A program made the position numbers and the translations under genes. From NCBI GenBank assembly GCA_964593005.1, contig CAZQGT010000002.1, positions 13,324 to 77,323 of the forward strand: a stretch of DNA of 64,000 nucleotides, read 5' to 3'. Source of the DNA: an uncultured Planctomycetales bacterium (GTDB taxonomy: Bacteria; Omnitrophota; Gorgyraeia; Gygaellales; Profunditerraquicolaceae). Shown in pieces: positions 35,709 through 60,339 of the stretch. The notes under the pieces are model-generated. The model worked only from the letters and a program-made list of their open reading frames with translations. It searched no databases and was not told where the DNA came from. The number at the start of each line of letters is the position of its first letter. Within the stretch, counting starts at the first letter, position 1.

Positions 35709-36830
35709 ATGAGAAAGATTAAACTTTCAAAATCGATTGTTGGGTTAGAAGAGAAAAAAGCGTTAAGTAAAGTAATTAACGGCAGCTATCTGGGGATGGG
35801 GAGCTTTGTCAGGGATTTCGAAAAATCACTCGAAGAATATATCGGCGGCGGCAAAGTTATATGTGTTAATTCAGGAACTGCCGCCTTACACCTGGCATTG
35901 ATGGGGATAGGGCTTATGCCTGGCGACGAGGTATTGGTGCAGTCGCTTACTTTTGTTGCCTGTTTTCAGGCAATAAGCGCTATAGGTGCTAAGCCGATAG
36001 CTTGCGAAGTTGTCCCGGGAACCTGTTTAATAGACTTAAAGGACGCCAAAAAGAGGTTAACTAAAAAAACAAAAGCAATTATGCCGGTGCATTATGCCAG
36101 TAGAGTTGAAAATATAGAAGAAGTTTATGCTTTTGCAAAAAAATATGGGCTTAGGGTTATAGAAGATGCATCTCATGCTTTTGGCTCGAAATATCATGGA
36201 AAAAAAATCGGTTCGTTTTCTGATATAGCATGTTTTAGTTTTGATGGTATAAAAAATATCACTTCCGGCGAAGGCGGGGCGGTTGTAACCAAAGACAAAA
36301 AGGTGGCCCAATTGGCAATGGATGCAAGGCTTTTGGGAGTTCGCAAAGATACTGAGAAGAGGTATCAAGGAAAGAGGAGCTGGAAATTTGATGTGTTTGT
36401 TCAGGGGTATAGATATCATATGAGCAATTTGTTTGCCTCTATTGGGCTTATCCAGCTTGGGAGGTTTGAAAAGGGATTTAAACCCTATCGCCAGAAGTTG
36501 GCTAAAAAGTATCATTATGAATTAAGTTCGCTTTCCGATGTTGTGTTATTCCCGGATGATTATGATGAAATCGTGCCGCATATATTTCCGATAAAAGTTG
36601 TGAATGGCAAGAGGGATGATTTGAGGCGCCATTTGATAATTAATAATATTGAATGCGGGGTGCATTATTATCCCAATCATCTTCTTGATTATTATGGAAA
36701 AGGAAAAGTAAAACTGCCGGTAACAGAAAAAATTTACAATGAATTGCTAAGCCTGCCTTTGCATCCTGATGTCACAGAGAGAGAGCAGAAGTATATAGTT
36801 AAGAAGATTAAGGATTTTTTTAGTAAATAA
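35709..36830 (+). CDS. DegT/DnrJ/EryC1/StrS-family PLP-dependent sugar aminotransferase
   Basis: VICVNSGTAALHLALMGIG. The conserved Lys is in FSFDGIKNITSGEGGAVV. Length is typical at 373 aa. Confidence 0.75.
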   Translation: MRKIKLSKSIVGLEEKKALSKVINGSYLGMGSFVRDFEKSLEEYIGGGKVICVNSGTAALHLALMGIGLMPGDEVLVQSLTFVACFQAISAIGAKPIACEVVPGTCLIDLKDAKKRLTKKTKAIMPVHYASRVENIEEVYAFAKKYGLRVIEDASHAFGSKYHGKKIGSFSDIACFSFDGIKNITSGEGGAVVTKDKKVAQLAMDARLLGVRKDTEKRYQGKRSWKFDVFVQGYRYHMSNLFASIGLIQLGRFEKGFKPYRQKLAKKYHYELSSLSDVVLFPDDYDEIVPHIFPIKVVNGKRDDLRRHLIINNIECGVHYYPNHLLDYYGKGKVKLPVTEKIYNELLSLPLHPDVTEREQKYIVKKIKDFFSK

Positions 36831-36865
36831 CTTGTTTATGCCGGGCTAAATCGGTATAATAAAAA

Positions 36866-38002
36866 TTGGAGAATAATATGGAAAAGCATAAAATAAGATC
36901 AGTCTTTAAGAATATTTATAAAGGGAAAAAGGTCTTAGTTACCGGCGATACCGGCTTTAAAGGATCCTGGCTTTCTATATGGCTGGCTTTATTGGGGGCT
37001 GAAGTCGTAGGGTATTCGCTTTATTTACCTTCTAAGCCGTGTTTATTTTCAGTCTGTAAAGTTAATAAGCATATTAAGCATATTAATGGAGATATCCGGG
37101 ATTACGCTGCATTAAAAAAAATATTTTTAAAATATAAATTTGATTTTGTATTTCATTTGGCTGCCCAGCCTATTGTAAACAAGGCTTATCACGATCCAAG
37201 ATCTACTTTTGAAGCCAATGTTTTGGGCTCGGTTAATATTTTAGAGTGTATTCGTAAGTTTTCTAGCAACACAGTAGCTATAATGATTACTAGCGATAAA
37301 TGTTATAATAATATGGGTTGGGATTGGGGATACAGGGAAACAGACCACCTTGGAGGAAATGACCCTTATAGTGCTTCAAAAGCTTGCGCTGAATTAGTTT
37401 GTCGTGCTTATTTTAAATCATTTTTTTATAAGCCGGATAGCTGTCTTAGGATCGCGACAGCAAGGGCGGGAAATGTCATCGGGGGCGGAGATTGGGCTGT
37501 TGATAGGATAGTTCCGGATTGTGTTAAGGCATGGAGTAAGAATGAAACGGTGAATGTCAGGAACCCAAAGGCAACTCGGCCTTGGCAGCATGTTCTTGAA
37601 CCTTTAAGCGGATATTTATGGTTGGGCGCGATAATTTCTAAGTCCCGAAAATTGAATGGCGAATCTTTTAATTTTGGTCCTGATTATAAGGTAAGGGAAT
37701 CAGTTGGAGGGTTGATTAAGTTATTCTCAAAATATTTTCAGGGAAATAATCAATGGAAATATCATGACAGAGAGAATGTGTTAAAAGAAAGCATGTTTTT
37801 AAAAGTATCAAGCGATAAAGCTTTAAAATACCTGGATTGGCATGCTGTGTTATCTTTTTCCGACACGATAAAAATGGCCGCGGAGTGGTATGAAAGATAT
37901 TATAAAGATAGAGATAGAGATATGCTAGATTTTACAATAAAACAGATAGGGTGTTATATTTCTGAAGCTAAAAAACTTAAACTTCCCTGGGCGAAAGGTT
38001 AA
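36866..38002 (+). CDS. rfbG: CDP-glucose 4,6-dehydratase (RfbG family, SDR)
   Basis: YKGKKVLVTGDTGFKGSWLSIWL matches the RfbG-specific N-terminal signature FWxGKxVxxTGxTGFKGSWLxLWL. Confidence 0.7.
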   Translation: MENNMEKHKIRSVFKNIYKGKKVLVTGDTGFKGSWLSIWLALLGAEVVGYSLYLPSKPCLFSVCKVNKHIKHINGDIRDYAALKKIFLKYKFDFVFHLAAQPIVNKAYHDPRSTFEANVLGSVNILECIRKFSSNTVAIMITSDKCYNNMGWDWGYRETDHLGGNDPYSASKACAELVCRAYFKSFFYKPDSCLRIATARAGNVIGGGDWAVDRIVPDCVKAWSKNETVNVRNPKATRPWQHVLEPLSGYLWLGAIISKSRKLNGESFNFGPDYKVRESVGGLIKLFSKYFQGNNQWKYHDRENVLKESMFLKVSSDKALKYLDWHAVLSFSDTIKMAAEWYERYYKDRDRDMLDFTIKQIGCYISEAKKLKLPWAKG

Positions 38003-38005
38003 TTT

Positions 38006-38443
38006 ATGATCGAAGGAGTTTTTATAGAAAAATTACTAAAATTAGAAGATAGCCGTGGTAAGGTCATGCGAATGCTACGATGCGATTCTCCCATTTTTAC
38101 TACTTTTGGGGAAGTGTATTTTTCCGGCATAAATAACGGTATTGTAAAAGCCTGGAGAAAGCATTTGAAGATGACGCAGTTTTTTGCGGTTCCGGTGGGC
38201 TTGATCAACTTGGTTATATATGATGATAGAGAAAAATCTTCGACTAAAGGTAATGTTTGGGAAATGGAATTAGGAGAAGAAAATTATTGTTTAGTAAAAA
38301 TCCCCCCTTTGCTATGGTATGGGTTTAAAGGAATATCCAGTACTCCGGCCCTTATCGCAAACTGCCCCGATATTCCTCATGATCCGGATGAAATTAGAAG
38401 GTTGGATTCAACGGATCCGTCAATTCCTTATATTTGGAAATAG
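38006..38443 (+). CDS. RmlC-like cupin sugar epimerase/ketoisomerase (FdtA/WxcM-N-like, 145 aa)
   Basis: FGEVYFSGINNGIVKAWRKHLKMTQFFAVPVG is RmlC-like. Its size fits the short 3,4-ketoisomerase/3,5-epimerase class. Confidence 0.5.
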   Translation: MIEGVFIEKLLKLEDSRGKVMRMLRCDSPIFTTFGEVYFSGINNGIVKAWRKHLKMTQFFAVPVGLINLVIYDDREKSSTKGNVWEMELGEENYCLVKIPPLLWYGFKGISSTPALIANCPDIPHDPDEIRRLDSTDPSIPYIWK

Positions 38444-38447
38444 CCTG

Positions 38448-39404
38448 ATGAATAACGCTAACATTAATAATCCTTTGGTGAGTATTATTATGAATTGCAG
38501 GAATGGCGAAAAGTATTTGCGGGAGGCCATTGATAGCATCTTTGCCCAGAGCTATACCAACTGGGAGATAATTTTCTGGGACAACGCATCTGATGACGGA
38601 ACTCCTGTTATTGCTAAAAGCTATGGCGCGAAATTGCGTTATTTTAAAAGTGCCCAGCCTTTGACGCTTGGGAAAGCCCGGAATATGGCTATTTCCTGTG
38701 CAAGCGGAAAGTACCTTGCTTTCTTGGATTGTGACGACAAGTGGTTTCCGGAAAAGTTAAAAAAACAAGTAGATATTTTAGAGAGTAAAAATGATATTGA
38801 TTTTGTTTACGCTAACTATTTTAGATTAATTATGCCTAAAGATAACCGCCTGATATTGGCCTTAAGGGGCCGGCAGCCCGAAGGGGATGTTTTCGGGCGT
38901 TTTTTCTATAATTACCCGGTTAATTTGCAAACAGTAATGTTAAGGATGGATGCGGTTAATAAGCTGGTTTTAAAATTTGATGATCAGTTTGAAGTATCAG
39001 AAGAATTTGATCTTTTTATGAGGCTTCTTTTTAAATCCAAGGCATTGTATATTGATGAGCCGTTGGCTATTTATCGTATTCACGAGGATATGAGTAGCAA
39101 TAAACTTTTGTATAGATATCCACTTGAGGCAAAAGATATATTGGGTAAGCTTAAAAATATGGATAGCTCGGTTTTACAAAAATATGCTATGCAAATTAAG
39201 TATTTTGAGGCTAAGCTAGGATATTGGCATGCAAGAATTGAAATGGAGCGAAATAATCCCGCCGCCGCAAGATTAAGGCTGATACCTTATAAATTTAAGG
39301 ATATAAAATTCTTTATCCTGTATCTTTTTACATATTTTCCTTGCGAATTTTGGAAATGGGTGCATCATATAAAAACAGAAAATAGCCTTCGTTGGCTGCG
39401 ATAG
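38448..39404 (+). CDS. GT2 glycosyltransferase
   Basis: Start moved to the ATG at 38448, just after the upstream stop. VSIIMNCRNGEKYLREAIDSIFAQSY; IIFWDNASDDGT (D-x-D). Confidence 0.65.
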   Translation: MNNANINNPLVSIIMNCRNGEKYLREAIDSIFAQSYTNWEIIFWDNASDDGTPVIAKSYGAKLRYFKSAQPLTLGKARNMAISCASGKYLAFLDCDDKWFPEKLKKQVDILESKNDIDFVYANYFRLIMPKDNRLILALRGRQPEGDVFGRFFYNYPVNLQTVMLRMDAVNKLVLKFDDQFEVSEEFDLFMRLLFKSKALYIDEPLAIYRIHEDMSSNKLLYRYPLEAKDILGKLKNMDSSVLQKYAMQIKYFEAKLGYWHARIEMERNNPAAARLRLIPYKFKDIKFFILYLFTYFPCEFWKWVHHIKTENSLRWLR

Positions 39405-39414
39405 TTTTATCCTT

Positions 39415-40545: not shown

Positions 40546-40546
40546 T

Positions 40547-41554: not shown

Positions 41555-41560
41555 GGAAAG

Positions 41561-42124: not shown

Positions 42125-42153
42125 AATTAACTCAAAAAAATAGCACTAACCCA

Positions 42154-42181
42154 TTGATAAAACTACATTTTGGTATATAAT
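42154..42181 (+). promoter_or_regulatory. Near-consensus sigma70-type promoter (TTGATA-N16-TATAAT)
   Basis: TTGATA at 42154-59 and TATAAT at 42176-81. The ATG at 42190 is only about 9 nt downstream of the -10 element. Confidence 0.35.
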
Positions 42182-42189
42182 AATAAACC

Positions 42190-44013: not shown

Positions 44014-44018
44014 TAATC

Positions 44019-48024: not shown

Positions 48025-48026
48025 TT

Positions 48027-50030: not shown

Positions 50031-51094
50031 TTAGTTCTCTAAGGTTCTTACCCCGGGTATTTTTCCATAAAGGAGACCCTTTACAGTTTATTTTTTTTAT
50101 TACCTCTAGATGCAACCTTAGATGCAGCCATTGTTTTTATCTAAAAAACCTGGATAATTCTAAGAACGAACTATCATTAGTAGAAATAGAGAAAATTTCA
50201 CAAAACATGGGTAATTTACTTTGGCTTTCTTTAACAGGCGGAGAGCCGTTTTTAAGAAAAGATGTTGCGCAAATCGCAGGAATATTTTATCGTAATAATA
50301 AATTTAACATTTTAAATCTATGCACTAACGGCACTTTGGGTGAGCAAATTATTCAGTCAACAGCTGAAATCTGTAAAGTTTGTAAAAATGCGCACGTAAT
50401 AATATATGTTTCACTGGATGGCCTGGAGGAAACGCATGATCAGATTAGGGGGGCTAATGGAGTTTTCAAAGCGGCCTTAGAAACAATTGCTGCACTTAAG
50501 AAGCTTAAAAGGGATTATAGGAATCTTAGTGTTTCAACTATTACGACCATTAATGCCCAAAATCAAGGGGAAATAAAAGAGCTGGCTTTATTTTTAAAGC
50601 GCGAGGTTAAACCGGATAACATTGCAATTAATCTTATAAGGGGAAAGCCCTGTTCAACTCTTTTAGGCGAGGTAGATTTAAAGTATTATTTTGATTTTAT
50701 AGAAATCCAGAAGCAAGGTTGGGAAACAGGGGATTTCGGGTACTTTAATTTATTCGGGAAAATTTTTATGCAGAAAAAAGAATTATTACAGAAACAAATA
50801 ATTGCCAGTGTATTTAAAGAAAACAAATATGTGATTCCCTGCCTTTCCGGAAATATAAGTTGTGTTATGACAGAAACAGGAGACCTGTATCCTTGCGAAA
50901 TTCTTGAAAAAAGAATTGGAAATATAAGAGATGCCAGTTATAATTTTAAAAAACTATGGCATTCCAGGGAGGCGGAGGAAATTAGGAAATTCATAAAAAA
51001 TAGTAAATGCTATTGTACTTATGAGTGTGCTTTAACTACGAATATTCTTTTTAACCCGATACAATTAGCGAGGATGTTTATTTCGAAGCTATAG
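50027..51094 (+). CDS. Radical SAM protein with SPASM domain
   Basis: FIFFITSRCNLRCSHCFY (CxxxCxxC). LSLTGGEPFL. C-terminal Cys-rich region (CLSGNISCVM...PCEIL...CYCTYEC) typical of SPASM auxiliary Fe-S clusters. Confidence 0.65.
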   Translation: MISSLRFLPRVFFHKGDPLQFIFFITSRCNLRCSHCFYLKNLDNSKNELSLVEIEKISQNMGNLLWLSLTGGEPFLRKDVAQIAGIFYRNNKFNILNLCTNGTLGEQIIQSTAEICKVCKNAHVIIYVSLDGLEETHDQIRGANGVFKAALETIAALKKLKRDYRNLSVSTITTINAQNQGEIKELALFLKREVKPDNIAINLIRGKPCSTLLGEVDLKYYFDFIEIQKQGWETGDFGYFNLFGKIFMQKKELLQKQIIASVFKENKYVIPCLSGNISCVMTETGDLYPCEILEKRIGNIRDASYNFKKLWHSREAEEIRKFIKNSKCYCTYECALTTNILFNPIQLARMFISKL

Positions 51095-51103
51095 GGGGTT
51101 TAT

Positions 51104-52090
51104 ATGAAATATCTAGTAACCGGCGGAACAGGGTTTATAGGCAGCGCTCTTGTTCGCCAACTTTTAAAAGAAGGAAATCAGGTGAGGGTATTGGATAATG
51201 GCCTAAGGGGAGATCTCGGCCGCCTAAAAGATTTTTCCTCTCAGGTAGAGATAGTAGAAGGAGATATCCGGGATTTAAAGGTTGTCCAAAAGGCATGCGA
51301 GAAAATAGATTCGGTTTGCCATCTTGCTTATTTAAACGGCACAGAATTTTTTTATACTAAGCCTGAATTAGTGCTTGAGATCGGCGTAAAGGGCATAGTT
51401 AATGTTATTGACGCTTGTATTAAAGAAGGTGTGCGGGAACTAATTGTTGCCTCCAGTTCTGAGGTTTATCAGACCCCTCCAAAAATCCCGACTGATGAGA
51501 CTGTGCCTTTAAGCGTTCCGGATCCACTTAATCCCCGTTATTCTTATGGCGCCGGAAAGATTATTAGTGAACTTATGGCGATAAATTACGGCAGGAAATA
51601 TTTTGACCGGGTAGTTATATTTCGTCCACACAATGTCTATGGACCGGATATGGGTTGGGAACACGTAATCCCGCAGTTAAGCTTAAGAATGAAAGAACTG
51701 TGCCAAAAAAATAAGGATAAGGTTATCCAATTTCCTATACAGGGAAGCGGCCAAGAAACACGCTCATTTATCTTTATCGATGATTTTATCAGCGGGTTAA
51801 TGCTTATGATAAAAAAGGGAAAGCATTTAGGAATATATAATATCGGTACAACGGATGAGATAACTATTAAGGAAGTTGCTATTGAAATAGGCATCTATTT
51901 TAAAAAAGAAATTGTTGTCTTGGCCGGTAAGCTGGCAGAAGGCGGAACTTTGCACCGTTGTCCGGATATCCAGAAGTTAAAAGGGCTTGGTTTTGAGCCG
52001 CGATTTTCTTTTAGCCAGGGTTTGAAAGCAACGGTTTCTTGGTATGATAAGAACGCTGATAAAAAAACAAAAATAAATAAGGAGAACTAA
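51104..52090 (+). CDS. NAD-dependent epimerase/dehydratase (extended SDR)
   Basis: MKYLVTGGTGFIGSALVRQLL. YSYGAGK (YxxxK). Confidence 0.65.
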   Translation: MKYLVTGGTGFIGSALVRQLLKEGNQVRVLDNGLRGDLGRLKDFSSQVEIVEGDIRDLKVVQKACEKIDSVCHLAYLNGTEFFYTKPELVLEIGVKGIVNVIDACIKEGVRELIVASSSEVYQTPPKIPTDETVPLSVPDPLNPRYSYGAGKIISELMAINYGRKYFDRVVIFRPHNVYGPDMGWEHVIPQLSLRMKELCQKNKDKVIQFPIQGSGQETRSFIFIDDFISGLMLMIKKGKHLGIYNIGTTDEITIKEVAIEIGIYFKKEIVVLAGKLAEGGTLHRCPDIQKLKGLGFEPRFSFSQGLKATVSWYDKNADKKTKINKEN

Positions 52091-52092
52091 AA

Positions 52093-53355
52093 TTGAATAA
52101 GCCAACTCAACTTGCATATAAAACAGGAACAAGCGTTATAGTCAAGCATTGTCAGATATGCGGCAATGACCAGCTAGAGCCAATTCTATTTCTAGGATAT
52201 TTGCCTCCGGTAAATAAAATGCATGTTATCGGTGAAAAACCTACGGAGGAGAGCAGTTATCCGGCGCAGTTACTATATTGTCCGCGGTGTCATTTAACCC
52301 AGCTTGGCCTTATTGTTGATCCGCGTATTTTATTTCCTCCGGAATATCCTTATACCAGCAGCACTACTAAGATATTAAGGGAAAATTTTGCCGAGTTGTA
52401 TAAAGAATGCAGCAGTTTAGTTGATTTAAAACCAAGTGATCTAATTGTAGATATCGGTTCAAACGATGGCAACCTATTGAGTAATTTTAAAGATAATCAC
52501 AAGGTTTGCGGTGTAACTCCTGAAGAGATCGGTAAAATCGCTATCCAGCGCGGCATTCCTACGATTATAGATTATTTTAATCATAACGTAGTAAAGAAGA
52601 TTTTATCAGAAAACGGTCAGGCAAAAATTATTACCGCAACCAATGTTTTTGCGCATATTGAAGACATTAATGAAATTGTTAAATGTATCTTGAGCCTGTT
52701 ATCTGGGGACGGGGTGTTTATTTCAGAGTCGCATTATCTCCTGCCTCTAATTGAAACATTGCAATATGATACAATATACCATGAGCATTTGCGTTATTAT
52801 TCTTTGCATAGCTTAGAGTATCTTTTTAAAATGCACGGTTTAGAAATATTTCACGCTAAACGTATTCCTACCCACGGCGGTTCGATTAGGGTATATGCGG
52901 CAAGAGCTGGAAAGTATCCCGTAAGGGATACAGTGTCTAAAATTTTAGAAGAAGAAAAGCCGGTTGTCTTAAGTAAGGAGAACCTGCTTAAGTTTAAAGA
53001 AAAAGTAGTGATATCGAAATTAGAATTAAATTCATTGTTAAAAGATATTAAGAAAAGAGGCCAGAAGATTTATGGCATAAGCGCCCCTTCTCGCGCAAGC
53101 ACCCTAATAAATTATGCGGGAATCGATGATGGGGTCCTGGATTATGTCGTGGAAATTAAAGGCAGCCACAAAATTGGAAAATATATGCCCGGGACGCTGA
53201 TTCCTGTGGTCGATGAATCAATGCTTTTTCAGGAGCAGCCGGAATATGCTTTATTGCTTTCTTGGCATATCGCAGATGAATTAATGCCTAAATTAAAACA
53301 AAAAGGTTTTAAAGGCAAATATATTATTCCATTGCCTTCGCCAAGAATAGCCTGA
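52093..53355 (+). CDS. Nucleotide-sugar C-methyltransferase, TcaB9/TylC3/NovU-like
   Basis: TTG start preceded by AAGGAGAA. Zinc-binding N-domain CQICGNDQLEPILFLGYLPPVNKM...CPRCHLTQ, four Cys. Central SAM fold (LIVDIGSNDGNLL). C-terminal domain of about 120 aa. The three-domain architecture and size (420 aa) match the family. Confidence 0.55.
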   Translation: MNKPTQLAYKTGTSVIVKHCQICGNDQLEPILFLGYLPPVNKMHVIGEKPTEESSYPAQLLYCPRCHLTQLGLIVDPRILFPPEYPYTSSTTKILRENFAELYKECSSLVDLKPSDLIVDIGSNDGNLLSNFKDNHKVCGVTPEEIGKIAIQRGIPTIIDYFNHNVVKKILSENGQAKIITATNVFAHIEDINEIVKCILSLLSGDGVFISESHYLLPLIETLQYDTIYHEHLRYYSLHSLEYLFKMHGLEIFHAKRIPTHGGSIRVYAARAGKYPVRDTVSKILEEEKPVVLSKENLLKFKEKVVISKLELNSLLKDIKKRGQKIYGISAPSRASTLINYAGIDDGVLDYVVEIKGSHKIGKYMPGTLIPVVDESMLFQEQPEYALLLSWHIADELMPKLKQKGFKGKYIIPLPSPRIA

Positions 53356-53384
53356 TTGCAGAGGAAAATAAGGGAAGATAGCGA

Positions 53385-55463
53385 ATGATAAGTTTAATAG
53401 CAGAGGTTCTGATTGTAAGCATCAGCTCCTGGGTGCTTACAAAAAAATGTTTTAATATAAGTTTATTTTCTGATGCAATCTTAGTTTGCTTTACTTTATT
53501 TTTCGGCCAGGTTGTTTTAGTAGAGACACTTTTAGGTATCGCTGGGCAGCTTTATTTCTTGAATGTTTTTGTCGCGCATTTATTGATTCTTTTGGTAATT
53601 TTGTTAATTTATCGGCATAAGAAAATGCCTGAATTTGCAAAACCTGATATAGATCCGTTTATTAATAGCAATTTGTTAATTTTAGCAGTTTCAATTTTCC
53701 TATCTTTCTTTTTGATAAAGGCGTATTCAAACCTGATTAATCCTGTTCAGGATATCGATAGTTTATTATATCATCTCGCTTTTCCTGCTGCCTGGATTAA
53801 AAGCGGTTCCTTGAATACTCCATTTTTTATATTTGGGTCGAAACCTATTTTAATTCCGAGCTTATTAGCAAACAGCGCTCCTTCTTATTATCCTATTAAT
53901 GGAGAATTATTTTTCACCTGGTTTATGTTGCCATTAAGAAATGTTTTTTTAGCAGACTTAGGAGAAGCCCCATTTTATTTTATAGGTATAACAGCCGTGT
54001 ATTCAATATTAACTAAATACAATGTGAATAGTAGAATAGCCCTATTGAGCGGATTCCTTTGGGTGCTCATCCCGAATATTTTTAAGCAGTTAAAATACGC
54101 TTCCCAACTTGATGTTATTTGCGCGGTATTGTTTCTTTTAGTAGTTTTTATGCTTTTATTATTAAAATCTAGGTTTACTCTTAAAAATGCTATTCTTTTT
54201 GGTGTTTCAATAGGGCTTTTTGTGGGAGTTAAATTTAATAATCTTATTTGGTTAGCAGCTTTATTGCCTTTTGCTCTTTATGTATTATATACGCGGGCAA
54301 AATTAAATAAGTACGCATTAAGCAGGGTTTTAATGCCTTCGGGCTTAATAATTTTAATGATTATTCTGTTCGGCGGTTATATGTATATAAAAAATTATTT
54401 TTTTACAGGTAATCCTATGTTTCCGGTAGAATTAAAAATATCCGATAAAACGATTTTTAAAGGCATACTTGATAGCAGCGCATTTAAGACGCAGATGTAT
54501 TCGAATGATAGCCGTGATTTATTCAGGCTTTTTAAAGAAGGCCTTGGTTTGCAATTCTTTTTTCTGATTTTTCCCGGCACATTTGCCTTTCTGGGTTTTT
54601 ATAAATACCTAAAAACAAAAGTATTTCCTTTGAAAGAGCATATGCTGCTTTTTGCCACTCCATTAATAATGCTTATTTTGTTTAAAATTTTCATCGGTGT
54701 TTATGTCGCGCGGTATCTTTTTGTTTATTTGAGTTTAGGGTTAATAACCGCCGTTATTTTAGCGGCCAAGTTGTCAAAAAATGGAGACAAATATATTGGC
54801 GTTGTTTCGTTCATTTCAATTCTGGCCGCATCTTTTGAATTAGCAAAAGGAAGCGAGCTAGTTGTTTCGGTTTTACTTTCTTTGGCAATTTTTATATTGT
54901 GTGTGTTTTATAAAAAACAAGCAGCTGCTTTTTATAAAAGTAAAAATTTTGGCAGGGTTATGTTTGCGGCGTTGTTGCTTGGGTCTTTGTTATTGGTCTA
55001 TCTCAATAATAAATATAATAATGAAGAATACGGCCGTTATCCTCTCAGTTTCAGCAAGAAGGAGGCTTGGCAGGCTGATTTAGGCAGAGCCTGGAAAGCT
55101 CTTAACGGGCTTACAGGGGAGGGTGCAAGGGTTGCTTATACAGGGCGTCAGGAGTGCCTTCCTCTATATGGCTCTGGATTTAAAAATTATATAAAGTATG
55201 TTTCTGTTAATGCAAAAGACATCACTCCTTATAATCATCCGGATGGTTTATATAGAAAAATAAAAAATTATTCGGCTTGGGAAAGAAACCTGAAAAAAGA
55301 GCAAATAGAATATTTGTTTATTGCGCTTCCTTTTCCTGCTAACAGGGAATCGGAGCCGAATAATTTTCCAATTGAAGATGAGTGGGCTGTCCTGCACGGA
55401 GAAATTTTTAAGCCGGTATTTAGTAATTCATTGGCACATATATATAAAGTAGCAATTAAATAA
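53385..55463 (+). CDS. Large polytopic membrane protein with C-terminal soluble domain (GT-C-like candidate)
   Basis: About 14 hydrophobic helices over about 520 aa, then a soluble domain of about 170 aa. No catalytic motif recognised. Confidence 0.35.
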   Translation: MISLIAEVLIVSISSWVLTKKCFNISLFSDAILVCFTLFFGQVVLVETLLGIAGQLYFLNVFVAHLLILLVILLIYRHKKMPEFAKPDIDPFINSNLLILAVSIFLSFFLIKAYSNLINPVQDIDSLLYHLAFPAAWIKSGSLNTPFFIFGSKPILIPSLLANSAPSYYPINGELFFTWFMLPLRNVFLADLGEAPFYFIGITAVYSILTKYNVNSRIALLSGFLWVLIPNIFKQLKYASQLDVICAVLFLLVVFMLLLLKSRFTLKNAILFGVSIGLFVGVKFNNLIWLAALLPFALYVLYTRAKLNKYALSRVLMPSGLIILMIILFGGYMYIKNYFFTGNPMFPVELKISDKTIFKGILDSSAFKTQMYSNDSRDLFRLFKEGLGLQFFFLIFPGTFAFLGFYKYLKTKVFPLKEHMLLFATPLIMLILFKIFIGVYVARYLFVYLSLGLITAVILAAKLSKNGDKYIGVVSFISILAASFELAKGSELVVSVLLSLAIFILCVFYKKQAAAFYKSKNFGRVMFAALLLGSLLLVYLNNKYNNEEYGRYPLSFSKKEAWQADLGRAWKALNGLTGEGARVAYTGRQECLPLYGSGFKNYIKYVSVNAKDITPYNHPDGLYRKIKNYSAWERNLKKEQIEYLFIALPFPANRESEPNNFPIEDEWAVLHGEIFKPVFSNSLAHIYKVAIK

Positions 55464-55464
55464 T

Positions 55465-57596: not shown

Positions 57597-57630
57597 TACC
57601 TGCTCTCTTTTACAAAAACGAAAGGTTTTA

Positions 57631-58674
57631 ATGAAGCAGGAAATTTTGAATATTTTATTTTGCCCCAAATGTAAGAGTGGTTCTTTAGGTTTAGATAATC
57701 TGGTTACTGATCAGATTGAGATAAGGAGCGGCAGGATTACCTGTGGCAGTTGCCGTGCCGAGTATAATATTAATGATGGTATAATTGATTTGTTTTATAA
57801 TCCGAATAAAAACGTTCTACGCGAGAGGAGGGCAATGGATGAAGATGATTATATTGCTGATGAAACCGGCAAGAAATATAGGATAACAAGTGAAATAATA
57901 GAGAGATTTAAAGACAAATTCCTTTCTTTGCCTGAAGGGGATGGCTCATCTTTTTTTAAACCCGGAGGAAGTTTTCAGACTACCGCCGAAGCCTCGGATA
58001 GATTTTATTCTGCACTGAAAGATTTGTGCTTAAGCGGCGAGGAAAGAATATTAGAAATCGGCGCTTGTTTTTCCTATGCCTCTTTTAAATTCGCGCAAAA
58101 GGGGTGTTTGGTAGTAGCTTTAGATATAAGTAATTATCTAAAAGTTTCGGATCTTTATGTAAAAGAAGCATATTTCGAAAGATTGTTTTCCGATATGCAC
58201 CACATGCCTTTTGTAGATAACAGTTTTGATATTGTATTTGGTTCGGCTGTCCTGCATCACAGTAAGAATCTTAAAGATGTATTTGCTGAAATTAGGCGCG
58301 TTCTAAAGCCCGGGGGCAGGCTTGTTTTAATTAATGAAGCAGCCAGGGGGGTGTTCGAGCGAATTCATCCTGTTTATAAGCAACTGGAAGAAAAGGGCTT
58401 TGGCGACACTGCTTATAATTTATTGGAGTGGAAAAAAGGGGCTAAAGAGGGTGGATTTAAAAAAGTTAAGATTATGTTTTCATCGCTGGCGGATGATTAT
58501 ATAATGAAATATAAGAATAGAGGGGGCAAATACACGTTTAAGGTTAGGTCGGCTTATTTTTTTAAAAAGCACCCTAGATTTGAAAGATTTGTGCTATGGT
58601 TTATAATATTGCCGAGATTATTGTCGAGGCCAAAAAGCTGGAAACTTGTTTGTTATAAAAATGCAAAAAGTTAA
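57631..58674 (+). CDS. Class I SAM-dependent methyltransferase with N-terminal Trm112-like zinc ribbon
   Basis: ILFCPKCKSG...CGSCRAEYNINDGIIDLF. FDIVFGSAVLHH. LKPGGRLVLINE. Confidence 0.6.
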   Translation: MKQEILNILFCPKCKSGSLGLDNLVTDQIEIRSGRITCGSCRAEYNINDGIIDLFYNPNKNVLRERRAMDEDDYIADETGKKYRITSEIIERFKDKFLSLPEGDGSSFFKPGGSFQTTAEASDRFYSALKDLCLSGEERILEIGACFSYASFKFAQKGCLVVALDISNYLKVSDLYVKEAYFERLFSDMHHMPFVDNSFDIVFGSAVLHHSKNLKDVFAEIRRVLKPGGRLVLINEAARGVFERIHPVYKQLEEKGFGDTAYNLLEWKKGAKEGGFKKVKIMFSSLADDYIMKYKNRGGKYTFKVRSAYFFKKHPRFERFVLWFIILPRLLSRPKSWKLVCYKNAKS

Positions 58675-59368
58675 AACAGTAATATTATGCGGCGGCAAAG
58701 GAACCAGGATGGGCAGCGATGAGTTACCTAAGGTTCTATTTCCTATAGGAGGCAAGCCGATACTTTGGCACATAATGAGCATTTACTCGTATTTTGGGTT
58801 CAATGATTTTATATTATGCCTTGGGTATAAAGGCGAGAAAATTAAAGAATATTTTTCGCATACAAATAGATGGAATTTAATTTTTTCCGATACGGGTGAA
58901 AATACTAATACCGGCGGTAGAATTAAGAAGGTTGAGAAATATATTAAAGAAGACTATTTCCTTGCTACCTATGGGGATGGCGTTGCGGATATCGATTTGG
59001 CCCAGCTTGTTAAATTTCACGAAAGGCATAAAAAGAGCGCCACGATTACTGTAGCCAGGCCTATTTCTCAGTTCGGTATCGTGGGAGTTGAGCCTCACAC
59101 TCAGTCTGTTACGCATTTTGAAGAAAAACCAATATTAGACCATTGGATAAATAGCGGTTTTTTTGTTTTTAATAAAAATATTTTTAACTACCTTTCGGAC
59201 AATGATATATTGGAAAGAGATAGTTTTAAGCGTATTTTAAAAGATAAAGAGTTGGATGCTTTTAAACACACGGGTTTTTGGAGATGTATGGATACTTATA
59301 AAGATAACCTTGAATTAAATGAACTTTGGAAGACAAATAAGGCTGCTTGGAAAATATGGAAAAAATAG
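58661..59368 (+). CDS. rfbF: Glucose-1-phosphate cytidylyltransferase (RfbF family)
   Basis: Start moved to the ATG at 58661. MQKVKTVILCGGKGTRMGSDELPKVLFPIGGKPILWHIM is the canonical RfbF/NTP-transferase N-terminus. Length is about 235 aa. Confidence 0.7.
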   Translation: MQKVKTVILCGGKGTRMGSDELPKVLFPIGGKPILWHIMSIYSYFGFNDFILCLGYKGEKIKEYFSHTNRWNLIFSDTGENTNTGGRIKKVEKYIKEDYFLATYGDGVADIDLAQLVKFHERHKKSATITVARPISQFGIVGVEPHTQSVTHFEEKPILDHWINSGFFVFNKNIFNYLSDNDILERDSFKRILKDKELDAFKHTGFWRCMDTYKDNLELNELWKTNKAAWKIWKK

Positions 59369-60339
59369 CGGATTTTTGGAGAAATAAAGTTATTTTTATA
59401 ACCGGGGCGAACGGTTTCCTGGGGTCACATTTAGTAAAAAGAGCCCTTTTTTTAAAGGCCAGGGTTATTGTTTTGATAAAAAAAGATATTGTTTATTCGT
59501 TATTTAAAATTGACGGGTTAGACAAAAAATCCAAGATTTACCGGGGAGATTTATCAGATAGCTTGTTAGTAAAATCAATATTTAAGAATAACAAGATCGA
59601 TGTTTGTTTTCATCTTGCTGCTCAGGCTTTTGTAGGCGTAGCCAATAATTCCCCCTTAAGCACATTTAAGGCAAACATTGAAGGCACCTGGAATGTGCTT
59701 GAGGCTGCCAGGGTTTTTGGAGTTAAAGCTATGGTTGTTGCTTCAAGTGATATGGCTTACGGAGAACAGAAAAAGCTTCCTTGCAAGGAGGGTGCGTCTT
59801 TAACTGCCCTACATCCTTATGATGCGTCTAAATCTTGCGCGGATATTCTTAGCAGGACCTATGCTCATACCTATAAGCTTCCGATAGCAGTTACCCGGTG
59901 TACTAATATCTATGGGCCGGGTGATTTTAATTTCTCAAGGATTATACCGGATGCTTGTCGCTCGGCAGCAAGAGGCAGAAATTTAATTATAAGGGGTAAT
60001 GGCGCTTCTTTGAGAGATTACACTTTTGTAGAAGATATTGTTGATGCGTATTTTATTCTGGCTGAAAATTTATTGAGAAAGAATATTAATTATGGCGAAG
60101 CCTTTAATTTTGGAACCGGTAAACCTATAAGCGTAATTGAGCTTGTGAAGACAATCTTAAAGATTTCCGGAAAACCCGGGTTGCTTCCTAGAATATTGAG
60201 CAAAGCTAAATCGAAATGGGAGATTGATAAATTATATCTTTCTAGCGCTAAGGCGAGAAAATTTTTAAAATGGTATCCTAAATATTCACTCAAAAAAGGT
60301 TTAGAAATAACTTATAAGTGGTACAAGGGGCACCTTTAA
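59347..60339 (+). CDS. NAD-dependent epimerase/dehydratase (extended SDR), CDP-sugar modifying candidate
   Basis: VIFITGANGFLGSHLV. YDASKSC (YxxxK). Adjacent to rfbF. Confidence 0.6.
   Translation: MENMEKIADFWRNKVIFITGANGFLGSHLVKRALFLKARVIVLIKKDIVYSLFKIDGLDKKSKIYRGDLSDSLLVKSIFKNNKIDVCFHLAAQAFVGVANNSPLSTFKANIEGTWNVLEAARVFGVKAMVVASSDMAYGEQKKLPCKEGASLTALHPYDASKSCADILSRTYAHTYKLPIAVTRCTNIYGPGDFNFSRIIPDACRSAARGRNLIIRGNGASLRDYTFVEDIVDAYFILAENLLRKNINYGEAFNFGTGKPISVIELVKTILKISGKPGLLPRILSKAKSKWEIDKLYLSSAKARKFLKWYPKYSLKKGLEITYKWYKGHL

What the first reader, a model, noticed from the sequence alone, without database searches (positions are those of the whole stretch)
35709..60339. CDP-hexose branch with a TcaB9-like C-methyltransferase: predicted C-branched deoxy(amino)sugar
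What the sequence shows: rfbF-like cytidylyltransferase (58661), rfbG-like CDP-glucose 4,6-dehydratase (36866, with the RfbG-specific TGFKGSWL motif), a short cupin epimerase/ketoisomerase (38006), a three-domain zinc/SAM/C-terminal sugar C-methyltransferase (52093), a DegT aminotransferase (35709), and SDR reductases/epimerases (46516, 51104, 59347).

Established knowledge: TcaB9/TylC3-type enzymes C-methylate NDP-4-keto sugars at C3 to give branched sugars such as mycarose or tetronitrose precursors. In cell-surface glycans branched-chain sugars are rare (yersiniose is an example).

Inference: a CDP-linked C-methyl-branched 6-deoxy or amino sugar is made here. These genes are dispersed across 25 kb rather than contiguous.
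Basis: partly seen in the sequence, partly recalled or inferred. Interest (0 to 1): 0.5.

Follow-up and report, generated by a model that had tools for sequence, protein, structure and literature searches.

The report
C-methyl sugar pathway, not CDP-linked
The sugar C-methyltransferase is real, but across 83 related genomes it travels with a sugar dehydrogenase, a decarboxylase-like enzyme and lipid-carrier transferases rather than with the CDP-glucose genes, so it most likely makes an undescribed methyl-branched five-carbon sugar for the cell surface.

Summary
52093 is a full-length TcaB9/MtmC-type sugar C-methyltransferase with the catalytic residues intact. 36866 is a true CDP-glucose 4,6-dehydratase.

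The link between the two is not supported. In 83 loci with orthologues of 52093 (56-88% identical, many bacterial and archaeal phyla):
- an orthologue of SDR 51104 is almost always present, in most loci directly upstream
- a nucleotide-sugar 6-dehydrogenase (45321) and a small polyprenyl-phosphate-type GT2 (47290) are usually present
- one of three enzymes usually follows: an RmlD-like reductase (46516), a C4-aminotransferase or a GFO oxidoreductase
- RfbF, RfbG and the cupin are almost never there.

51104 carries the Ser-Glu and Arg signature of UDP-glucuronate decarboxylases. The membrane protein 53385 models as a GT-C glycosyltransferase.

Best reading: an Arn-like route. The steps are UDP-sugar, uronate, UDP-4-keto-pentose, C-methylation, C4 reduction, polyprenyl-phosphate carrier, then GT-C transfer.

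The CDP genes form separate conserved modules: DegT-RfbG-cupin-GT2, and RfbF-SDR. Distant paralogues of the methyltransferase (about 32% identity) do sit beside RfbF and RfbG in other genomes.

I found no description of such a pathway in the held literature. All chemistry here is inferred.

The parts
45321..46529 (+). Nucleotide-sugar 6-dehydrogenase, the predicted entry enzyme of the C-methyltransferase module (UDP-hexose or UDP-HexNAc to the uronate).
   Evidence: TIGR03026 at 243.8 bits, above the cut-off of 189.8. Nearest named families are UDP-ManNAc dehydrogenases, far below their cut-offs. The catalytic Cys262 (GPCLLKD), K207, N211 and D266 are at least 97% conserved over 56 sequences. 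Orthologues lie beside the methyltransferase in 35 of 48 full-flank loci.
46516..47280 (+). Short RmlD-like SDR, predicted C4-ketoreductase acting after C-methylation.
   Evidence: PF04321 at 95 bits. Best solved relatives are dTDP-4-dehydrorhamnose reductases (2GGS, 1VL0). Orthologues occur in the same position in L003, L004, L006, L007, L008, L015, L017, L020 and L024. Other loci have a DegT or a GFO oxidoreductase at this position instead.
47290..48024 (+). Small GT2, predicted polyprenyl-phosphate glycosyltransferase (ArnC / PpgS / DPM1-like).
   Evidence: Best solved relatives are dolichol-P-mannose synthase 5MLZ, GtrB 5EKP and ArnC 9HWJ. Best NCBIfam families are PgfS, PpgS, AglJ, dolichyl-P hexose transferase and ArnC, all below cut-off. 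A GT2 of this type is present in 39 of 48 full-flank loci.
48027..51094 (+). Three-gene insert within the module: DUF362 protein (48027), GT2 (49068) and radical SAM/SPASM protein (50027). Roles unknown.
   Evidence: Pfam assignments are. The same three genes sit at the same place in L006 and L007 (60-88% identical) but are absent from most other loci.
51104..52090 (+). Extended SDR, predicted UDP-uronate 4-oxidase/decarboxylase releasing a UDP-4-keto-pentose (UXS / ArnA C-terminal-domain-like).
   Evidence: Orthologues occur in 47 of 48 full-flank loci, in most loci directly upstream of the methyltransferase. S117, S119, E120, Y148, K152 and R285 are invariant over 34 orthologues and S118 is at least 90% conserved. 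In alignment with human UXS1, S118-S119-E120 match T118-S119-E120, Y148/K152 match Y147/K151 and R285 matches R277. Those are the UXS-group signature residues (PMC3438964). The orthologue profile scores human UXS1 at 163 bits and RmlB-type dehydratases at 143 or less.
52093..53355 (+). TcaB9/TylC3/MtmC-type SAM-dependent nucleotide-sugar C-methyltransferase (zinc domain, SAM domain, C-terminal domain).
   Evidence: Domain and structure matches are. The residues aligned with TcaB9 Y76, H181, Y222, E224 and H225 are Y85, H188, Y229, E231 and H232, invariant in 83 of 83 orthologues. The four zinc cysteines are present.
53385..55463 (+). 692-aa polytopic membrane protein with GT-C fold. Predicted to transfer the sugar from the polyprenyl-phosphate carrier to its final acceptor outside the cytoplasm.
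   Evidence: No Pfam or NCBIfam hit. The AlphaFold model has pLDDT 88.9 and pTM 0.92. The top 33 Foldseek PDB hits are all GT-C enzymes (STT3/PglB/AglB, DPY19, Pmt, EmbA/EmbB, PimE, GPI mannosyltransferase I), with probability 0.97-1.0, best E 1e-5 and TM 0.24-0.43. All homologues that carry an organism name are Omnitrophota; one carries PF13231 PMT_2. The same gene follows the methyltransferase in L005.
35709..36830 (+). DegT-family PLP aminotransferase of the separate CDP-hexose module.
   Evidence: PF01041 at 325.8 bits. The active-site Lys motif SFDGIKNITSGEGG is visible in the translation. DegT-RfbG-cupin-GT2 is conserved in L085-L092 and L121, with DegT 60-76% identical in most.
36866..38002 (+). 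CDP-glucose 4,6-dehydratase (RfbG).
   Evidence: TIGR02622 at 451.6 bits, above the cut-off of 278.45. The ITSDKCY catalytic motif is visible in the translation.
38006..38443 (+). RmlC-like short cupin, a predicted epimerase (or ketoisomerase) acting on CDP-4-keto-6-deoxyglucose.
   Evidence: Matches 3EJK at 148 bits and archaeal RmlC weakly. PF00908 is at threshold. It lies directly downstream of RfbG in 43 of 80 RfbG-anchored loci.
38448..39404 (+). GT2 glycosyltransferase that travels with the RfbG-cupin pair. The likely true start is the ATG at 38448, not the ORF start at 38319.
   Evidence: PF00535 at 104 bits. It is present in 41 of 80 RfbG-anchored loci. The internal Met sits 4 nt after the cupin stop.
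58661..59368 (+). Short-form glucose-1-phosphate cytidylyltransferase (RfbF family), the likely CDP-glucose supplier.
   Evidence: TIGR02623 at 249.9 bits, below the cut-off of 300.25. Matches 1TZF at 210 bits with an internal deletion. The same short form (about 22 residues missing) occurs in 27 of 62 aligned sequences, window copy included, among them copies next to RfbG.
59356..60339 (+). Extended SDR paired with RfbF. It has an atypical SSDMAYG motif; function unresolved (reductase or epimerase rather than a canonical 4,6-dehydratase).
   Evidence: TIGR02622 at 192 bits and TIGR01181 at 179 bits, both below cut-off. PDB neighbours are a mix of GalE, RmlB and RfbG at 120-133 bits. The RfbF + SDR pair is conserved in L003 (54% and 50% identity) and L007 (48% and 48%).

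Best explanation
The C-methyltransferase 52093 belongs to a conserved module (45321, 46516, 47290, 51104, 52093, 53385) that works like the Arn (aminoarabinose) pathway with an added C-methylation step. It is not part of the CDP-hexose branch.

Proposed steps:
1. 45321 oxidises a common UDP-sugar at C6 to the uronic acid. The enzyme class is shown; the sugar identity is inferred.
2. 51104 oxidises C4 and decarboxylates, releasing a UDP-4-keto-pentose. This is inferred from the UXS/ArnA signature residues and from its constant pairing with the dehydrogenase.
3. 52093 removes a proton next to the C4 ketone and methylates that carbon with SAM. C3 is most likely, by analogy with TcaB9, TylC3 and MtmC. 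The enzyme family and intact active site are shown; the substrate and the position are inferred.
4. 46516 reduces the C4 ketone. Related loci have a C4-aminotransferase with an acyltransferase, or a GFO oxidoreductase, at this step instead.
5. 47290 puts the sugar on a polyprenyl phosphate.
6. After flipping by an unidentified protein, the GT-C enzyme 53385 transfers the sugar to an envelope acceptor.

The product would be a methyl-branched pentose on the surface of an Omnitrophota-like bacterium.

The CDP genes form separate units. DegT 35709, RfbG 36866, cupin 38006 and GT2 38448 form one. RfbF 58661 and SDR 59356 form another. They probably make a CDP-linked 4-amino-4,6-dideoxy- or 6-deoxy-hexose.
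For: Gene neighbourhoods:
- In 83 loci spanning Omnitrophota, Planctomycetia, Verrucomicrobia, CPR phyla, Chloroflexota, Acidobacteriota, Alphaproteobacteria, Woesearchaeota, Nanoarchaeota and Methanosarcinales, the best window match of neighbouring ORFs is 51104 in 78, 45321 in 65 and 47290 in 62. The order is typically DH-(reductase | DegT | GFO)-GT2-SDR-CMT.
- With full flanks the counts are 47, 35 and 39 of 48; RfbF is in 3 and RfbG in 0.
- L004 is a compact operon of only DH, short SDR, GT2, a methyltransferase, SDR and C-MT among housekeeping genes. L002 has DH, formyltransferase, DegT, GT2, SDR and C-MT, which is Arn-like.
- Only 6 of 83 loci contain any nucleotidyltransferase-motif ORF, so a housekeeping UDP-sugar is the likely input.

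Individual enzymes:
- 51104 has the UXS-group residues S119, E120 and R277(=R285), which are invariant (PMC3438964).
- 45321 keeps the catalytic Cys.
- The alternative downstream enzymes are C4-type: RmlD-like reductases, or DegTs whose best families are all C4-aminotransferases.
- 47290 resembles DPMS, GtrB, ArnC and PpgS.
- 53385 has a GT-C fold.

Precedent: ArnA, CalS9 and EvdS6 release UDP-4-keto-pentose for further tailoring, and eurekanate is a branched sugar derived from a pentose (PMC10338323).
Against: - No biochemistry exists for any member, so every substrate and product is inferred.
- 51104 is only about 99 bits (single sequence) or 163 bits (profile) from human UXS1. A GDP-sugar 4-epimerase (8RDG, PMC12171764) scores slightly higher.
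- 51104 is far below the NCBIfam cut-off for UDP-4-keto-pentose/UDP-xylose synthase (73.6 against 294).
- The Thr/Ser-Ser-Glu motif also occurs in GDP-mannose 4,6-dehydratases (my own knowledge), so it is not unique to decarboxylases.
- The dehydrogenase is nearest to UDP-ManNAc dehydrogenases, so the sugar may be a HexNAc rather than glucose.
- No flippase was identified.
- The GT-C gene is adjacent only in Omnitrophota relatives. Other loci have PMT_2-type or no recognisable GT-C gene.
- All characterised enzymes of this methyltransferase family use dTDP-hexoses.
- In this window an RfbF, and 15 kb away an RfbG, are present, so use of a CDP-sugar cannot be excluded by genomics alone.
Confidence: 0.55

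Rival explanations
1. First reader's model. RfbF 58661 makes CDP-glucose and RfbG 36866 makes CDP-4-keto-6-deoxyglucose. 52093 methylates it at C3. The cupin, a DegT or an SDR finish a CDP-linked 3-C-methyl-6-deoxy(amino)hexose, a vinelose-like sugar.
For: - All the required enzyme classes are in the window.
- 52093 is a bona fide TcaB9-type enzyme.
- Paralogous C-methyltransferases do sit between RfbF and RfbG in L083, and next to RfbF-SDR pairs in L007 and L018.
- RfbF + SDR pairs lie within 5 kb of the orthologue in L003 and L007, as in the window.
- CDP-vinelose (6-deoxy-3-C-methyl-2-O-methyl-L-talose) from Azotobacter vinelandii is a chemical precedent. This is my own knowledge; the library search found nothing.
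Against: - The orthologue group of 52093 is next to RfbF in 3 of 48 full-flank loci and next to RfbG in none, but next to 51104-type SDRs in 47 of 48.
- The paralogues that are RfbG-associated are only 31-40% identical to 52093.
- Relatives of RfbG 36866 keep the cupin, RfbF and a GT2 but not a C-methyltransferase: 1 of 80 loci.
- In the window, 52093 starts 2 nt after 51104 ends and lies 15 kb from RfbG.
Confidence: 0.12
2. The module is as described, but 51104 is not a decarboxylase. It acts as a 4,6-dehydratase or 4-oxidase on a UDP-hexose or UDP-HexNAc. 52093 then methylates a 4-keto-6-deoxyhexose, giving a UDP-linked 3-C-methyl-6-deoxyhexose. The dehydrogenase 45321 would serve another sugar of the same glycan.
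For: - 51104's strongest NCBIfam and PDB scores are to LegB-type and dTDP-glucose dehydratases and to a GDP-sugar 4-epimerase, not to UXS.
- A Ser-Glu pair is also used by GDP-mannose 4,6-dehydratase (my own knowledge).
- All characterised TcaB9-family substrates are 6-deoxyhexoses.
Against: - The dehydrogenase is co-conserved in the same operon, including minimal operons with a single GT2 and no second sugar pathway (L004).
- A uronate cannot be 4,6-dehydrated.
- The dehydratase acid Asp (T-D-E) is replaced by an invariant Ser.
- Profile comparison ranks human UXS1 above all RmlB-type dehydratases.
- S119, E120 and R277 equivalents are all present (PMC3438964).
Confidence: 0.15
3. [quoted passage not shown] This would turn the pentose into a 4-keto-6-deoxyhexose by a route that needs no 4,6-dehydratase.
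For: - C5 of a 4-keto-pentose is also alpha to the ketone, and is the carbon carrying the enolate after decarboxylation (PMC3438964).
- Homologous enzymes that methylate C5 of 4-keto sugars exist, such as NovU in noviose biosynthesis (my own knowledge).
Against: - The solved relatives that match best (MtmC, TcaB9, KijD1) are all C3-methyltransferases.
- The route would duplicate what ordinary dehydratases achieve more simply.
- No data here bear on which carbon is methylated.
Confidence: 0.08

Closest known systems
Arn pathway for 4-amino-4-deoxy-L-arabinose modification of lipid A (Ugd, ArnA, ArnB, ArnC, ArnD, ArnE/F, ArnT)
   Same: The logic is the same: UDP-sugar 6-dehydrogenase, then an SDR with the UXS/ArnA signature giving a 4-keto-pentose, then C4 tailoring, then a small GT2 loading a polyprenyl phosphate, then a GT-C transferase. 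Some related loci even have formyltransferase and DegT in arn-like order (L002).
   Different: An added TcaB9-type C-methyltransferase is the most conserved member of the module. In the window, C4 is handled by an RmlD-like reductase rather than ArnB plus formyltransferase. No ArnD or ArnE/F equivalents were found. The GT2 and the GT-C score far below, or not at all, against the ArnC and ArnT (PMT_2) models. The decarboxylase is a stand-alone protein only distantly related to ArnA.
TcaB9 / TylC3 / MtmC / KijD1 dTDP-hexose 3-C-methyltransferases of antibiotic deoxysugar pathways
   Same: Same three-domain architecture, zinc site and catalytic Tyr/His/Glu residues, with full-length alignment at E 1e-48 to 1e-60.
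   Different: Those enzymes act on dTDP-4-keto-2,6-dideoxy or 3-amino-trideoxy hexoses made by RmlA/RmlB-type enzymes in actinomycete secondary metabolism. Here the partners are a 6-dehydrogenase and a UXS-like SDR in cell-envelope clusters of mostly uncultivated bacteria and archaea. The orthologue group is unusually conserved (56-88% identity across phyla).
UDP-4-keto-pentose-releasing decarboxylases feeding tailoring enzymes (ArnA, CalS9/AtmS9, EvdS6); eurekanate as a pentose-derived branched sugar (PMC10338323)
   Same: A uronate decarboxylase releases the 4-keto-pentose for a downstream tailoring enzyme. In everninomicin the result is a branched-chain sugar.
   Different: Eurekanate branching is proposed to be a TPP-dependent two-carbon addition at C4, in a natural product. 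Here the branch is a SAM-derived methyl next to C4, in surface-glycan clusters.
PpgS/Rv3779-type and GtrB/GtrC-type polyprenyl-phosphate sugar decoration systems
   Same: A small soluble or monotopic GT2 makes a polyprenyl-phosphate monosaccharide that a GT-C enzyme uses outside the membrane.
   Different: Those systems transfer ordinary sugars (GalNAc, Glc) and have no dedicated nucleotide-sugar tailoring enzymes.
CDP-hexose pathways (RfbF/RfbG: 3,6-dideoxyhexoses, CDP-6-deoxy sugars; CDP-vinelose)
   Same: 36866 passes the RfbG equivalog model. 58661 is RfbF family. A cupin, a DegT or SDR, and a GT2 accompany them in conserved order.
   Different: There is no RfbH/E1 dehydrase, so this is not a 3,6-dideoxyhexose route. 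The 52093-type C-methyltransferase is not part of this module; only distant paralogues are, in other genomes.

Membership tests
TcaB9/TylC3-type nucleotide-sugar C-methyltransferase | Three-domain architecture: N-terminal zinc domain (PF08421), class I SAM domain, C-terminal domain (PF08484) | tested here: met
   46.7, 57.9 and 139.9 bits, all above the gathering scores; end-to-end alignment to 4RV9, 3NDI and 5T64.
TcaB9/TylC3-type nucleotide-sugar C-methyltransferase | Four zinc-binding cysteines and the active-site residues probed in TcaB9 (Y76, H181, Y222, E224, H225; roles from my own knowledge of the Holden-laboratory papers) | tested here: met
   alignment: C20, C23, C63, C66, Y85, H188, Y229, E231, H232; the five catalytic positions are invariant in 83 of 83 orthologues.
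TcaB9/TylC3-type nucleotide-sugar C-methyltransferase | Substrate is a dTDP-linked 4-keto-6-deoxyhexose, methylated at C3 | not testable with these tools
   Genomic context argues for a different substrate, a UDP-4-keto-pentose. Nucleotide and position need enzymology.
CDP-glucose 4,6-dehydratase (RfbG, TIGR02622) | Score above the curated equivalog cut-off, and the Ser-Asp-Lys catalytic motif | tested here: met
   451.6 against 278.45 bits. ITSDKCY is visible in the translation.
Glucose-1-phosphate cytidylyltransferase (RfbF, TIGR02623) | Score above the curated equivalog cut-off over the full model | tested here: not met
   249.9 against 300.25 bits, in two stretches; the segment matching residues 68-86 of 1TZF is missing; the same short form occurs in 27 of 62 aligned sequences (window copy included), among them copies adjacent to RfbG. 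It is therefore a natural subfamily, probably functional but unproven.
UDP-glucuronate decarboxylase group (UXS / ArnA C-terminal domain) | SDR triad Thr/Ser-Tyr-Lys plus the group-specific Ser119, Glu120 and Arg277 (human UXS1 numbering; PMC3438964) | tested here: met
   S118-S119-E120, Y148/K152 and R285 align with those residues; all except S118 (at least 90% conserved) are invariant in 34 orthologues. Caveat: the Arg is also present in RmlB-type enzymes (2HUN alignment).
UDP-glucuronate decarboxylase group (UXS / ArnA C-terminal domain) | Score above the curated family cut-off (NF008872 UDP-4-keto-pentose/UDP-xylose synthase; NF005998 ArnA) | tested here: not met
   73.6 against 294 bits, and 52.5 against 777 bits. 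The profile against the PDB places human UXS1 third-best at 163 bits.
Arn (L-Ara4N) lipid A modification system | Ugd, ArnA decarboxylase, ArnB aminotransferase, ArnA formyltransferase, ArnC, ArnD, ArnE/F and ArnT all present | tested here: not met
   The window module has no aminotransferase, formyltransferase, deformylase or SMR flippase next to it. It has a reductase and a C-methyltransferase instead. A formyltransferase was found in only 2 of 83 related loci. It works like Arn but is not a member.
GT-C fold glycosyltransferases | Polytopic membrane domain with the GT-C architecture plus an extracytoplasmic C-terminal domain | tested here: met
   model pLDDT 88.9, pTM 0.92; the top 33 Foldseek hits are all GT-C, with probability 0.97-1.0 and TM 0.24-0.43. 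The catalytic acidic residue is not assigned (D125 is nearly invariant).
Polyprenyl-phosphate glycosyltransferases of GT2 (DPM1/GtrB/ArnC/PpgS) | Closest relatives by sequence are enzymes of this class | tested here: inconclusive
   the best hits are all of this class, but weak (45-63 bits) and far below every curated cut-off.

The most novel reading that the evidence does not exclude
A methyl-branched pentose, or in related loci its 4-amino-4-deoxy N-acylated form, is made from a UDP-uronate by decarboxylation followed by TcaB9-type C-methylation. It is delivered through a polyprenyl-phosphate carrier to the cell envelope. Because the methyltransferase-SDR pair is 56-88% conserved across many bacterial phyla and DPANN and methanogenic archaea, this would be a widespread, horizontally shared surface-sugar modification that has not been described chemically.
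Probability: 0.45. Interest if true: 0.7.

Novelty: new variant of a known kind. Interest (0 to 1): 0.55.

Why it matters
Branched-chain sugars are rare in surface glycans, and the known C-methyltransferases of this family come from antibiotic pathways that use dTDP-hexoses.

Here the enzyme sits at the centre of a compact, very widely distributed gene module. At least 8000 homologues exist, and the close orthologues sampled span many phyla of mostly uncultivated bacteria and archaea. The module's logic copies the lipid A aminoarabinose pathway.

If the prediction holds:
- it defines a new nucleotide-sugar route (uronate, 4-keto-pentose, C-methyl pentose);
- it gives this enzyme family a new substrate class;
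- it describes a surface decoration that may affect phage, predator or antimicrobial-peptide interactions in Omnitrophota, CPR bacteria and DPANN archaea.

It also shows that annotating such genes by the nearest nucleotide-sugar genes in a large cluster can assign them to the wrong pathway.

Tried and rejected
- I expected the gene between the dehydrogenase and DegT in the DegT-type loci to be an ArnA-like formyltransferase throughout. BLAST with the L002 formyltransferase found it in only 2 loci. The commoner partner is a hexapeptide acyltransferase (13 loci).
- I hoped the DegTs of those loci would score best as ArnB. They score best as LegC and PseC, and all top families are C4-aminotransferases, none above cut-off. 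This supports a 4-keto intermediate but not a pentose specifically.
- Pfam and NCBIfam gave nothing for 53385. Only the structure model resolved it.
- Literature searches for vinelose, for a C-methyltransferase together with UDP-4-keto sugars or UDP-glucuronate decarboxylase, and for Omnitrophota glycans found nothing relevant. The TcaB9 papers could not be fetched by DOI.
- Looking up the identical copy of 53385 to name the source genome returned only the ENA metagenome contig. The Omnitrophota assignment therefore rests on the names of the closest homologues.
- I considered that the deletion in RfbF 58661 marks a decayed gene. I rejected this because the short form is common and sits beside RfbG elsewhere.
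- I considered 59356 as a second 4,6-dehydratase feeding the methyltransferase. It lacks the Lys/Glu base (SSDMAYG) and is rarely near orthologues of 52093.

Full report
**Setting**

The window is one uninterrupted, single-strand (+) block of tightly packed glycan-biosynthesis genes, with G+C of 35-45%. It contains:
- glycosyltransferases of the GT2 and GT4 families
- a Wzx-like flippase, two Wzy_C proteins and a PglC-like initiating transferase
- a PglF-like dehydratase
- a NeuB/CMP-transferase branch
- many methyltransferases
- five B12-binding radical SAM proteins and three radical SAM/SPASM proteins.

Identical DNA occurs on the ENA metagenome contig ERZ27248937:k141_483549 and on a JGI contig. 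The closest named homologues of two of its proteins come from Candidatus Omnitrophota MAGs.

**Checking the observation**

- 52093-53355 has the three Pfam domains of sugar C-methyltransferases: PF08421, PF13489 and PF08484, the last at 139.9 bits.
- It aligns over its full length with the solved enzymes MtmC (4RV9, E 2.7e-60), TcaB9 (3NDI, 4e-50) and KijD1 (5T64).
- Read from that alignment, the four zinc cysteines are present.
- The residues that align with TcaB9 Y76, H181, Y222, E224 and H225 are Y85, H188, Y229, E231 and H232. The roles of those TcaB9 residues are from my own knowledge; PMC9539859 cites TcaB9 as the C-3'-methyltransferase of D-tetronitrose. All five are invariant in 83 orthologues.
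- 36866 passes the curated CDP-glucose 4,6-dehydratase model (451.6 against 278 bits).
- 35709 is a DegT aminotransferase with its active-site lysine.
- 38006 is a short RmlC-like cupin resembling 3EJK.
- 58661 is in the RfbF family but below the curated cut-off (249.9 against 300.25 bits), because a hairpin of about 22 residues is missing. The same short form occurs in 27 of 62 aligned sequences, window copy included, among them copies next to RfbG, so it is a natural subfamily.

**Which genes does the methyltransferase work with?**

52093 has at least 8000 homologues at E below 1e-20. The best 120 are 73-100% identical. The named ones come from Omnitrophota, Woesearchaeota, Thermoproteota, Chloroflexota and Latescibacterota.

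Three long contigs showed the same neighbours:
- a UDP-glucose/GDP-mannose-dehydrogenase-family gene
- then either a short RmlD-like SDR, or a formyltransferase plus DegT
- a small GT2 in two of the three; in the third the nearest GT2 lies downstream
- an SDR of about 330 aa, followed by the methyltransferase.

I then fetched 80 loci from species-representative genomes (56-83% identity, more than 15 phyla). Every ORF was assigned to its best match among the window's proteins.

Counts among the 83 loci:

| Window protein | Loci with a best match |
|---|---|
| 51104 (SDR) | 78 |
| 45321 (dehydrogenase) | 65 |
| 47290 (GT2) | 62 |
| DegT | 32 |
| 46516 (short SDR) | 12 |
| RfbF-like | 6 |
| RfbG | 1 |
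| cupin | 1 |

An orthologue of 51104 ends within 400 bp upstream of the methyltransferase, on the same strand, in 50 loci.

Restricting to the 48 loci with at least 6 kb upstream and 4 kb downstream:

| Neighbour type | Loci of 48 |
|---|---|
| 51104-type SDR | 47 |
| 45321-type dehydrogenase | 35 |
| 47290-type GT2 | 39 |
| DegT | 17 |
| GFO/IDH/MocA oxidoreductase | 16 |
| short SDR | 8 |
| RfbF-like | 3 |
| RfbG | 0 |

Only 6 of 83 loci contain any ORF with a sugar-1-phosphate nucleotidyltransferase motif. The window has the same order: 45321, 46516, 47290, then a three-gene insert also seen in L006 and L007, then 51104, 52093 and 53385.

**The converse test**

80 metagenome loci anchored on relatives of RfbG 36866 show a different conserved module:
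- The usual order is RfbG-cupin-RfbF-(SDR)-GT2.
- In the closest relatives it is DegT-(RfbF)-RfbG-cupin-GT2.
- Counts: RfbF 55, cupin 43, GT2 41, DegT 15.
- A C-methyltransferase appears once, as a 31% paralogue 5.7 kb away.

Nine paralogues of 52093 (31-40% identical) occur in the orthologue loci. Some lie beside RfbF and RfbG (L083) or beside an RfbF-SDR pair (L007, L018). C-methyltransferases associated with CDP-hexose genes therefore exist, but they form a different subfamily from 52093.

**What the partners are**

*45321.* It passes the nucleotide-sugar dehydrogenase model (243.8 against 189.8 bits). It is nearest to UDP-ManNAc dehydrogenases without reaching their cut-offs. It keeps the catalytic cysteine and the Lys/Asn/Asp residues across 56 sequences.

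*51104.* In 34 orthologues S117, S119, E120, Y122, Y148, K152 and R285 are invariant. Aligned with human UXS1:
- S118-S119-E120 fall on T118-S119-E120
- Y148/K152 fall on Y147/K151
- R285 falls on R277
- the NPRYSYGAGK stretch parallels GPRACYDEGK.

PMC3438964 names Ser119, Glu120 and Arg277 as the distinctive features of the UXS group. It states that Glu120 and Arg277 are replaced by Ser and Thr in the epimerases.

The profile of the orthologues scores a GDP-sugar 4-epimerase (8RDG; PMC12171764) at 176 bits, human UXS1 at 163 and RmlB-type dehydratases at 143 or less.

The dehydratase acid Asp is an invariant Ser here. A uronate cannot undergo 4,6-dehydration. The constant pairing with a 6-dehydrogenase therefore argues for a decarboxylase.

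Whether such an enzyme releases the keto-pentose or reduces it cannot be read from sequence (PMC10338323). The presence of a separate reductase or aminotransferase argues for release, as in ArnA, CalS9 and EvdS6.

*46516.* It is an RmlD-like reductase. The DegTs that replace it in other loci score best against LegC, PseC, DesI, WecE and ArnB, all C4-aminotransferases.

*47290.* It resembles dolichol-phosphate mannose synthase, GtrB, ArnC and PpgS, though weakly.

*53385.* It has no family hit. With an alignment of 36 homologues (all named ones from Omnitrophota) it gives a confident model, pLDDT 88.9 and pTM 0.92. The top 33 PDB matches are all GT-C glycosyltransferases.

**Mechanism proposed**

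1. UDP-sugar is oxidised to the UDP-uronate by 45321.
2. 51104 converts it to a UDP-4-keto-pentose.
3. 52093 methylates it with SAM, at C3 by analogy.
4. 46516 reduces C4.
5. 47290 makes the polyprenyl-phosphate sugar.
6. An unknown protein flips it across the membrane.
7. 53385 transfers it to an envelope acceptor.

Shown here: the enzyme families, the intact active sites, the gene linkage and the GT-C fold. Inferred: every substrate, the nucleotide, the methylated carbon, the carrier lipid and the acceptor.

This is the logic of the Arn pathway with an extra C-methylation. It is not a member of that system: ArnB, the formyltransferase, ArnD and ArnE/F are absent from the window module, and a formyltransferase was found in only 2 of 83 loci.

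**The CDP-hexose genes**

They probably form their own branch.
- 58661 supplies CDP-glucose.
- 36866 makes CDP-4-keto-6-deoxyglucose.
- The RmlC-like cupin epimerises or isomerises it.
- DegT 35709 aminates it.
- GT2 38448 uses the product.

59356, the SDR conserved next to the short-form RfbF in L003 and L007, has an SSDMAYG motif without the Lys/Glu base. It may be a reductase or an epimerase. The DegT could alternatively serve the PglF-like dehydratase at 42190, but its conserved adjacency to RfbG favours the CDP assignment.

**Weaknesses**

- There is no biochemistry for any member of the module.
- 51104 is only distantly related to characterised decarboxylases and is below the curated family cut-offs.
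- The Ser-Glu pair also occurs in GDP-mannose dehydratases (my own knowledge).
- The dehydrogenase's sugar is unknown.
- The GT-C gene is adjacent only in Omnitrophota relatives.
- The window does contain RfbF and RfbG, so a CDP-sugar substrate cannot be excluded without assays.
- The loci are related by descent and by horizontal transfer, so the counts are not independent events. They do, however, span many phyla in both domains.

**Verdict**

A C-branched sugar is likely, and a CDP-hexose branch exists, but the evidence places them in different pathways.

The methyltransferase module is a new variant of known kinds (Arn-like carrier route plus a TcaB9-type enzyme). I found no description of it in the held literature.

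Noticed in passing
window 11982-13688, 21774-23450, 24582-26039, 26042-27610, 56199-57596; also 30-1175, 14523-15380, 50027-51094: One glycan cluster holds five B12-binding radical SAM proteins and three radical SAM/SPASM proteins. 56199 scores best against PhpK-type P-methyltransferases and other cobalamin-dependent methylases, below cut-off. This is an unusual density of radical chemistry for a surface-polysaccharide locus, and it suggests further methylations at unactivated carbon or phosphorus.
   Followed up: partly
window 13705-17987: A nonulosonic-acid branch. NeuB (263 bits) is followed by an overlapping radical SAM/SPASM ORF, a CMP-sugar cytidylyltransferase (PF02348), a class III aminotransferase and a glyoxalase-fold protein. 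It is unrelated to the finding but belongs to the same super-cluster.
   Followed up: no
window 33166-35707; L086, L090: Three genes sit upstream of DegT-RfbG-cupin: methyltransferase 33166, a 252-aa protein 34191 and a methyltransferase-like protein 34946. 34191 has an HGDLSLDN...DWE kinase-type catalytic loop and only sub-threshold hits to RIO, choline-kinase and APH families. The three travel with the CDP-hexose module in L086 and L090. The CDP-sugar may therefore be methylated or phosphorylated.
   Followed up: partly
window 31407-33179: A 590-aa protein has no Pfam hit even at E=1. Low-identity relatives (22-45%) recur within a few kb of RfbG in 7 of 80 loci. It may be an unrecognised transferase.
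   Followed up: no
window 58661-59368; alignment: RfbF-family cytidylyltransferases come in two forms. The short form lacks a hairpin of about 22 residues that is present in the solved Salmonella enzyme (27 of 62 aligned sequences, window copy included). The short form falls below NCBI's equivalog cut-off, so it is likely to be under-annotated.
   Followed up: yes
L007 13261-16330; L003 13715-15528; window 58661-60339: The short or long RfbF plus the SSDM-motif SDR is a conserved pair. In L007 it is followed directly by a second, paralogous C-methyltransferase (33% identical to 52093). In the window it is preceded instead by two class I methyltransferases and a B12 radical SAM enzyme.
   Followed up: partly
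L002-L084 (orthologues of 52093): The methyltransferase and its upstream SDR are 49-88% identical between Bacteria and Archaea (Woesearchaeota, Nanoarchaeota, Aenigmatarchaeota, Micrarchaeota, Methanosarcinales), which implies extensive horizontal transfer of the module. In 8 of 83 orthologues, two of the four zinc cysteines (C23 and C66 equivalents) are serines, so the zinc site may be dispensable.
   Followed up: partly
L011, L022, L023, L025, L026, L032, L038, L040, L052 and others: A NUDIX hydrolase of about 197 aa accompanies the dehydrogenase-SDR-methyltransferase module in 22 loci. A class I methyltransferase of about 259 aa accompanies it in 13. The window module has neither. Their roles are unknown; nucleotide-sugar hydrolysis and O-methylation are possibilities.
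   Followed up: partly
window 38319-38447 and 60812-61050: Two mechanical ORF starts overlap the upstream gene. 38319 overlaps the cupin by 125 nt, and the likely true start is ATG 38448. The Wzy_C ORF at 60812 overlaps GT2 60373-61050; the gene call on the ENA contig starts at window position 61001.
   Followed up: yes
window 27611-29872, 44019-45308, 60812-62275, 62290-63999: Further envelope-assembly genes are present: a YfhO-like 753-aa membrane protein, two Wzy_C (O-antigen ligase/polymerase-like) proteins, a polysaccharide deacetylase and a carbamoyltransferase that runs off the window end. More than one glycan, or several decorations, may be assembled from this locus.
   Followed up: no
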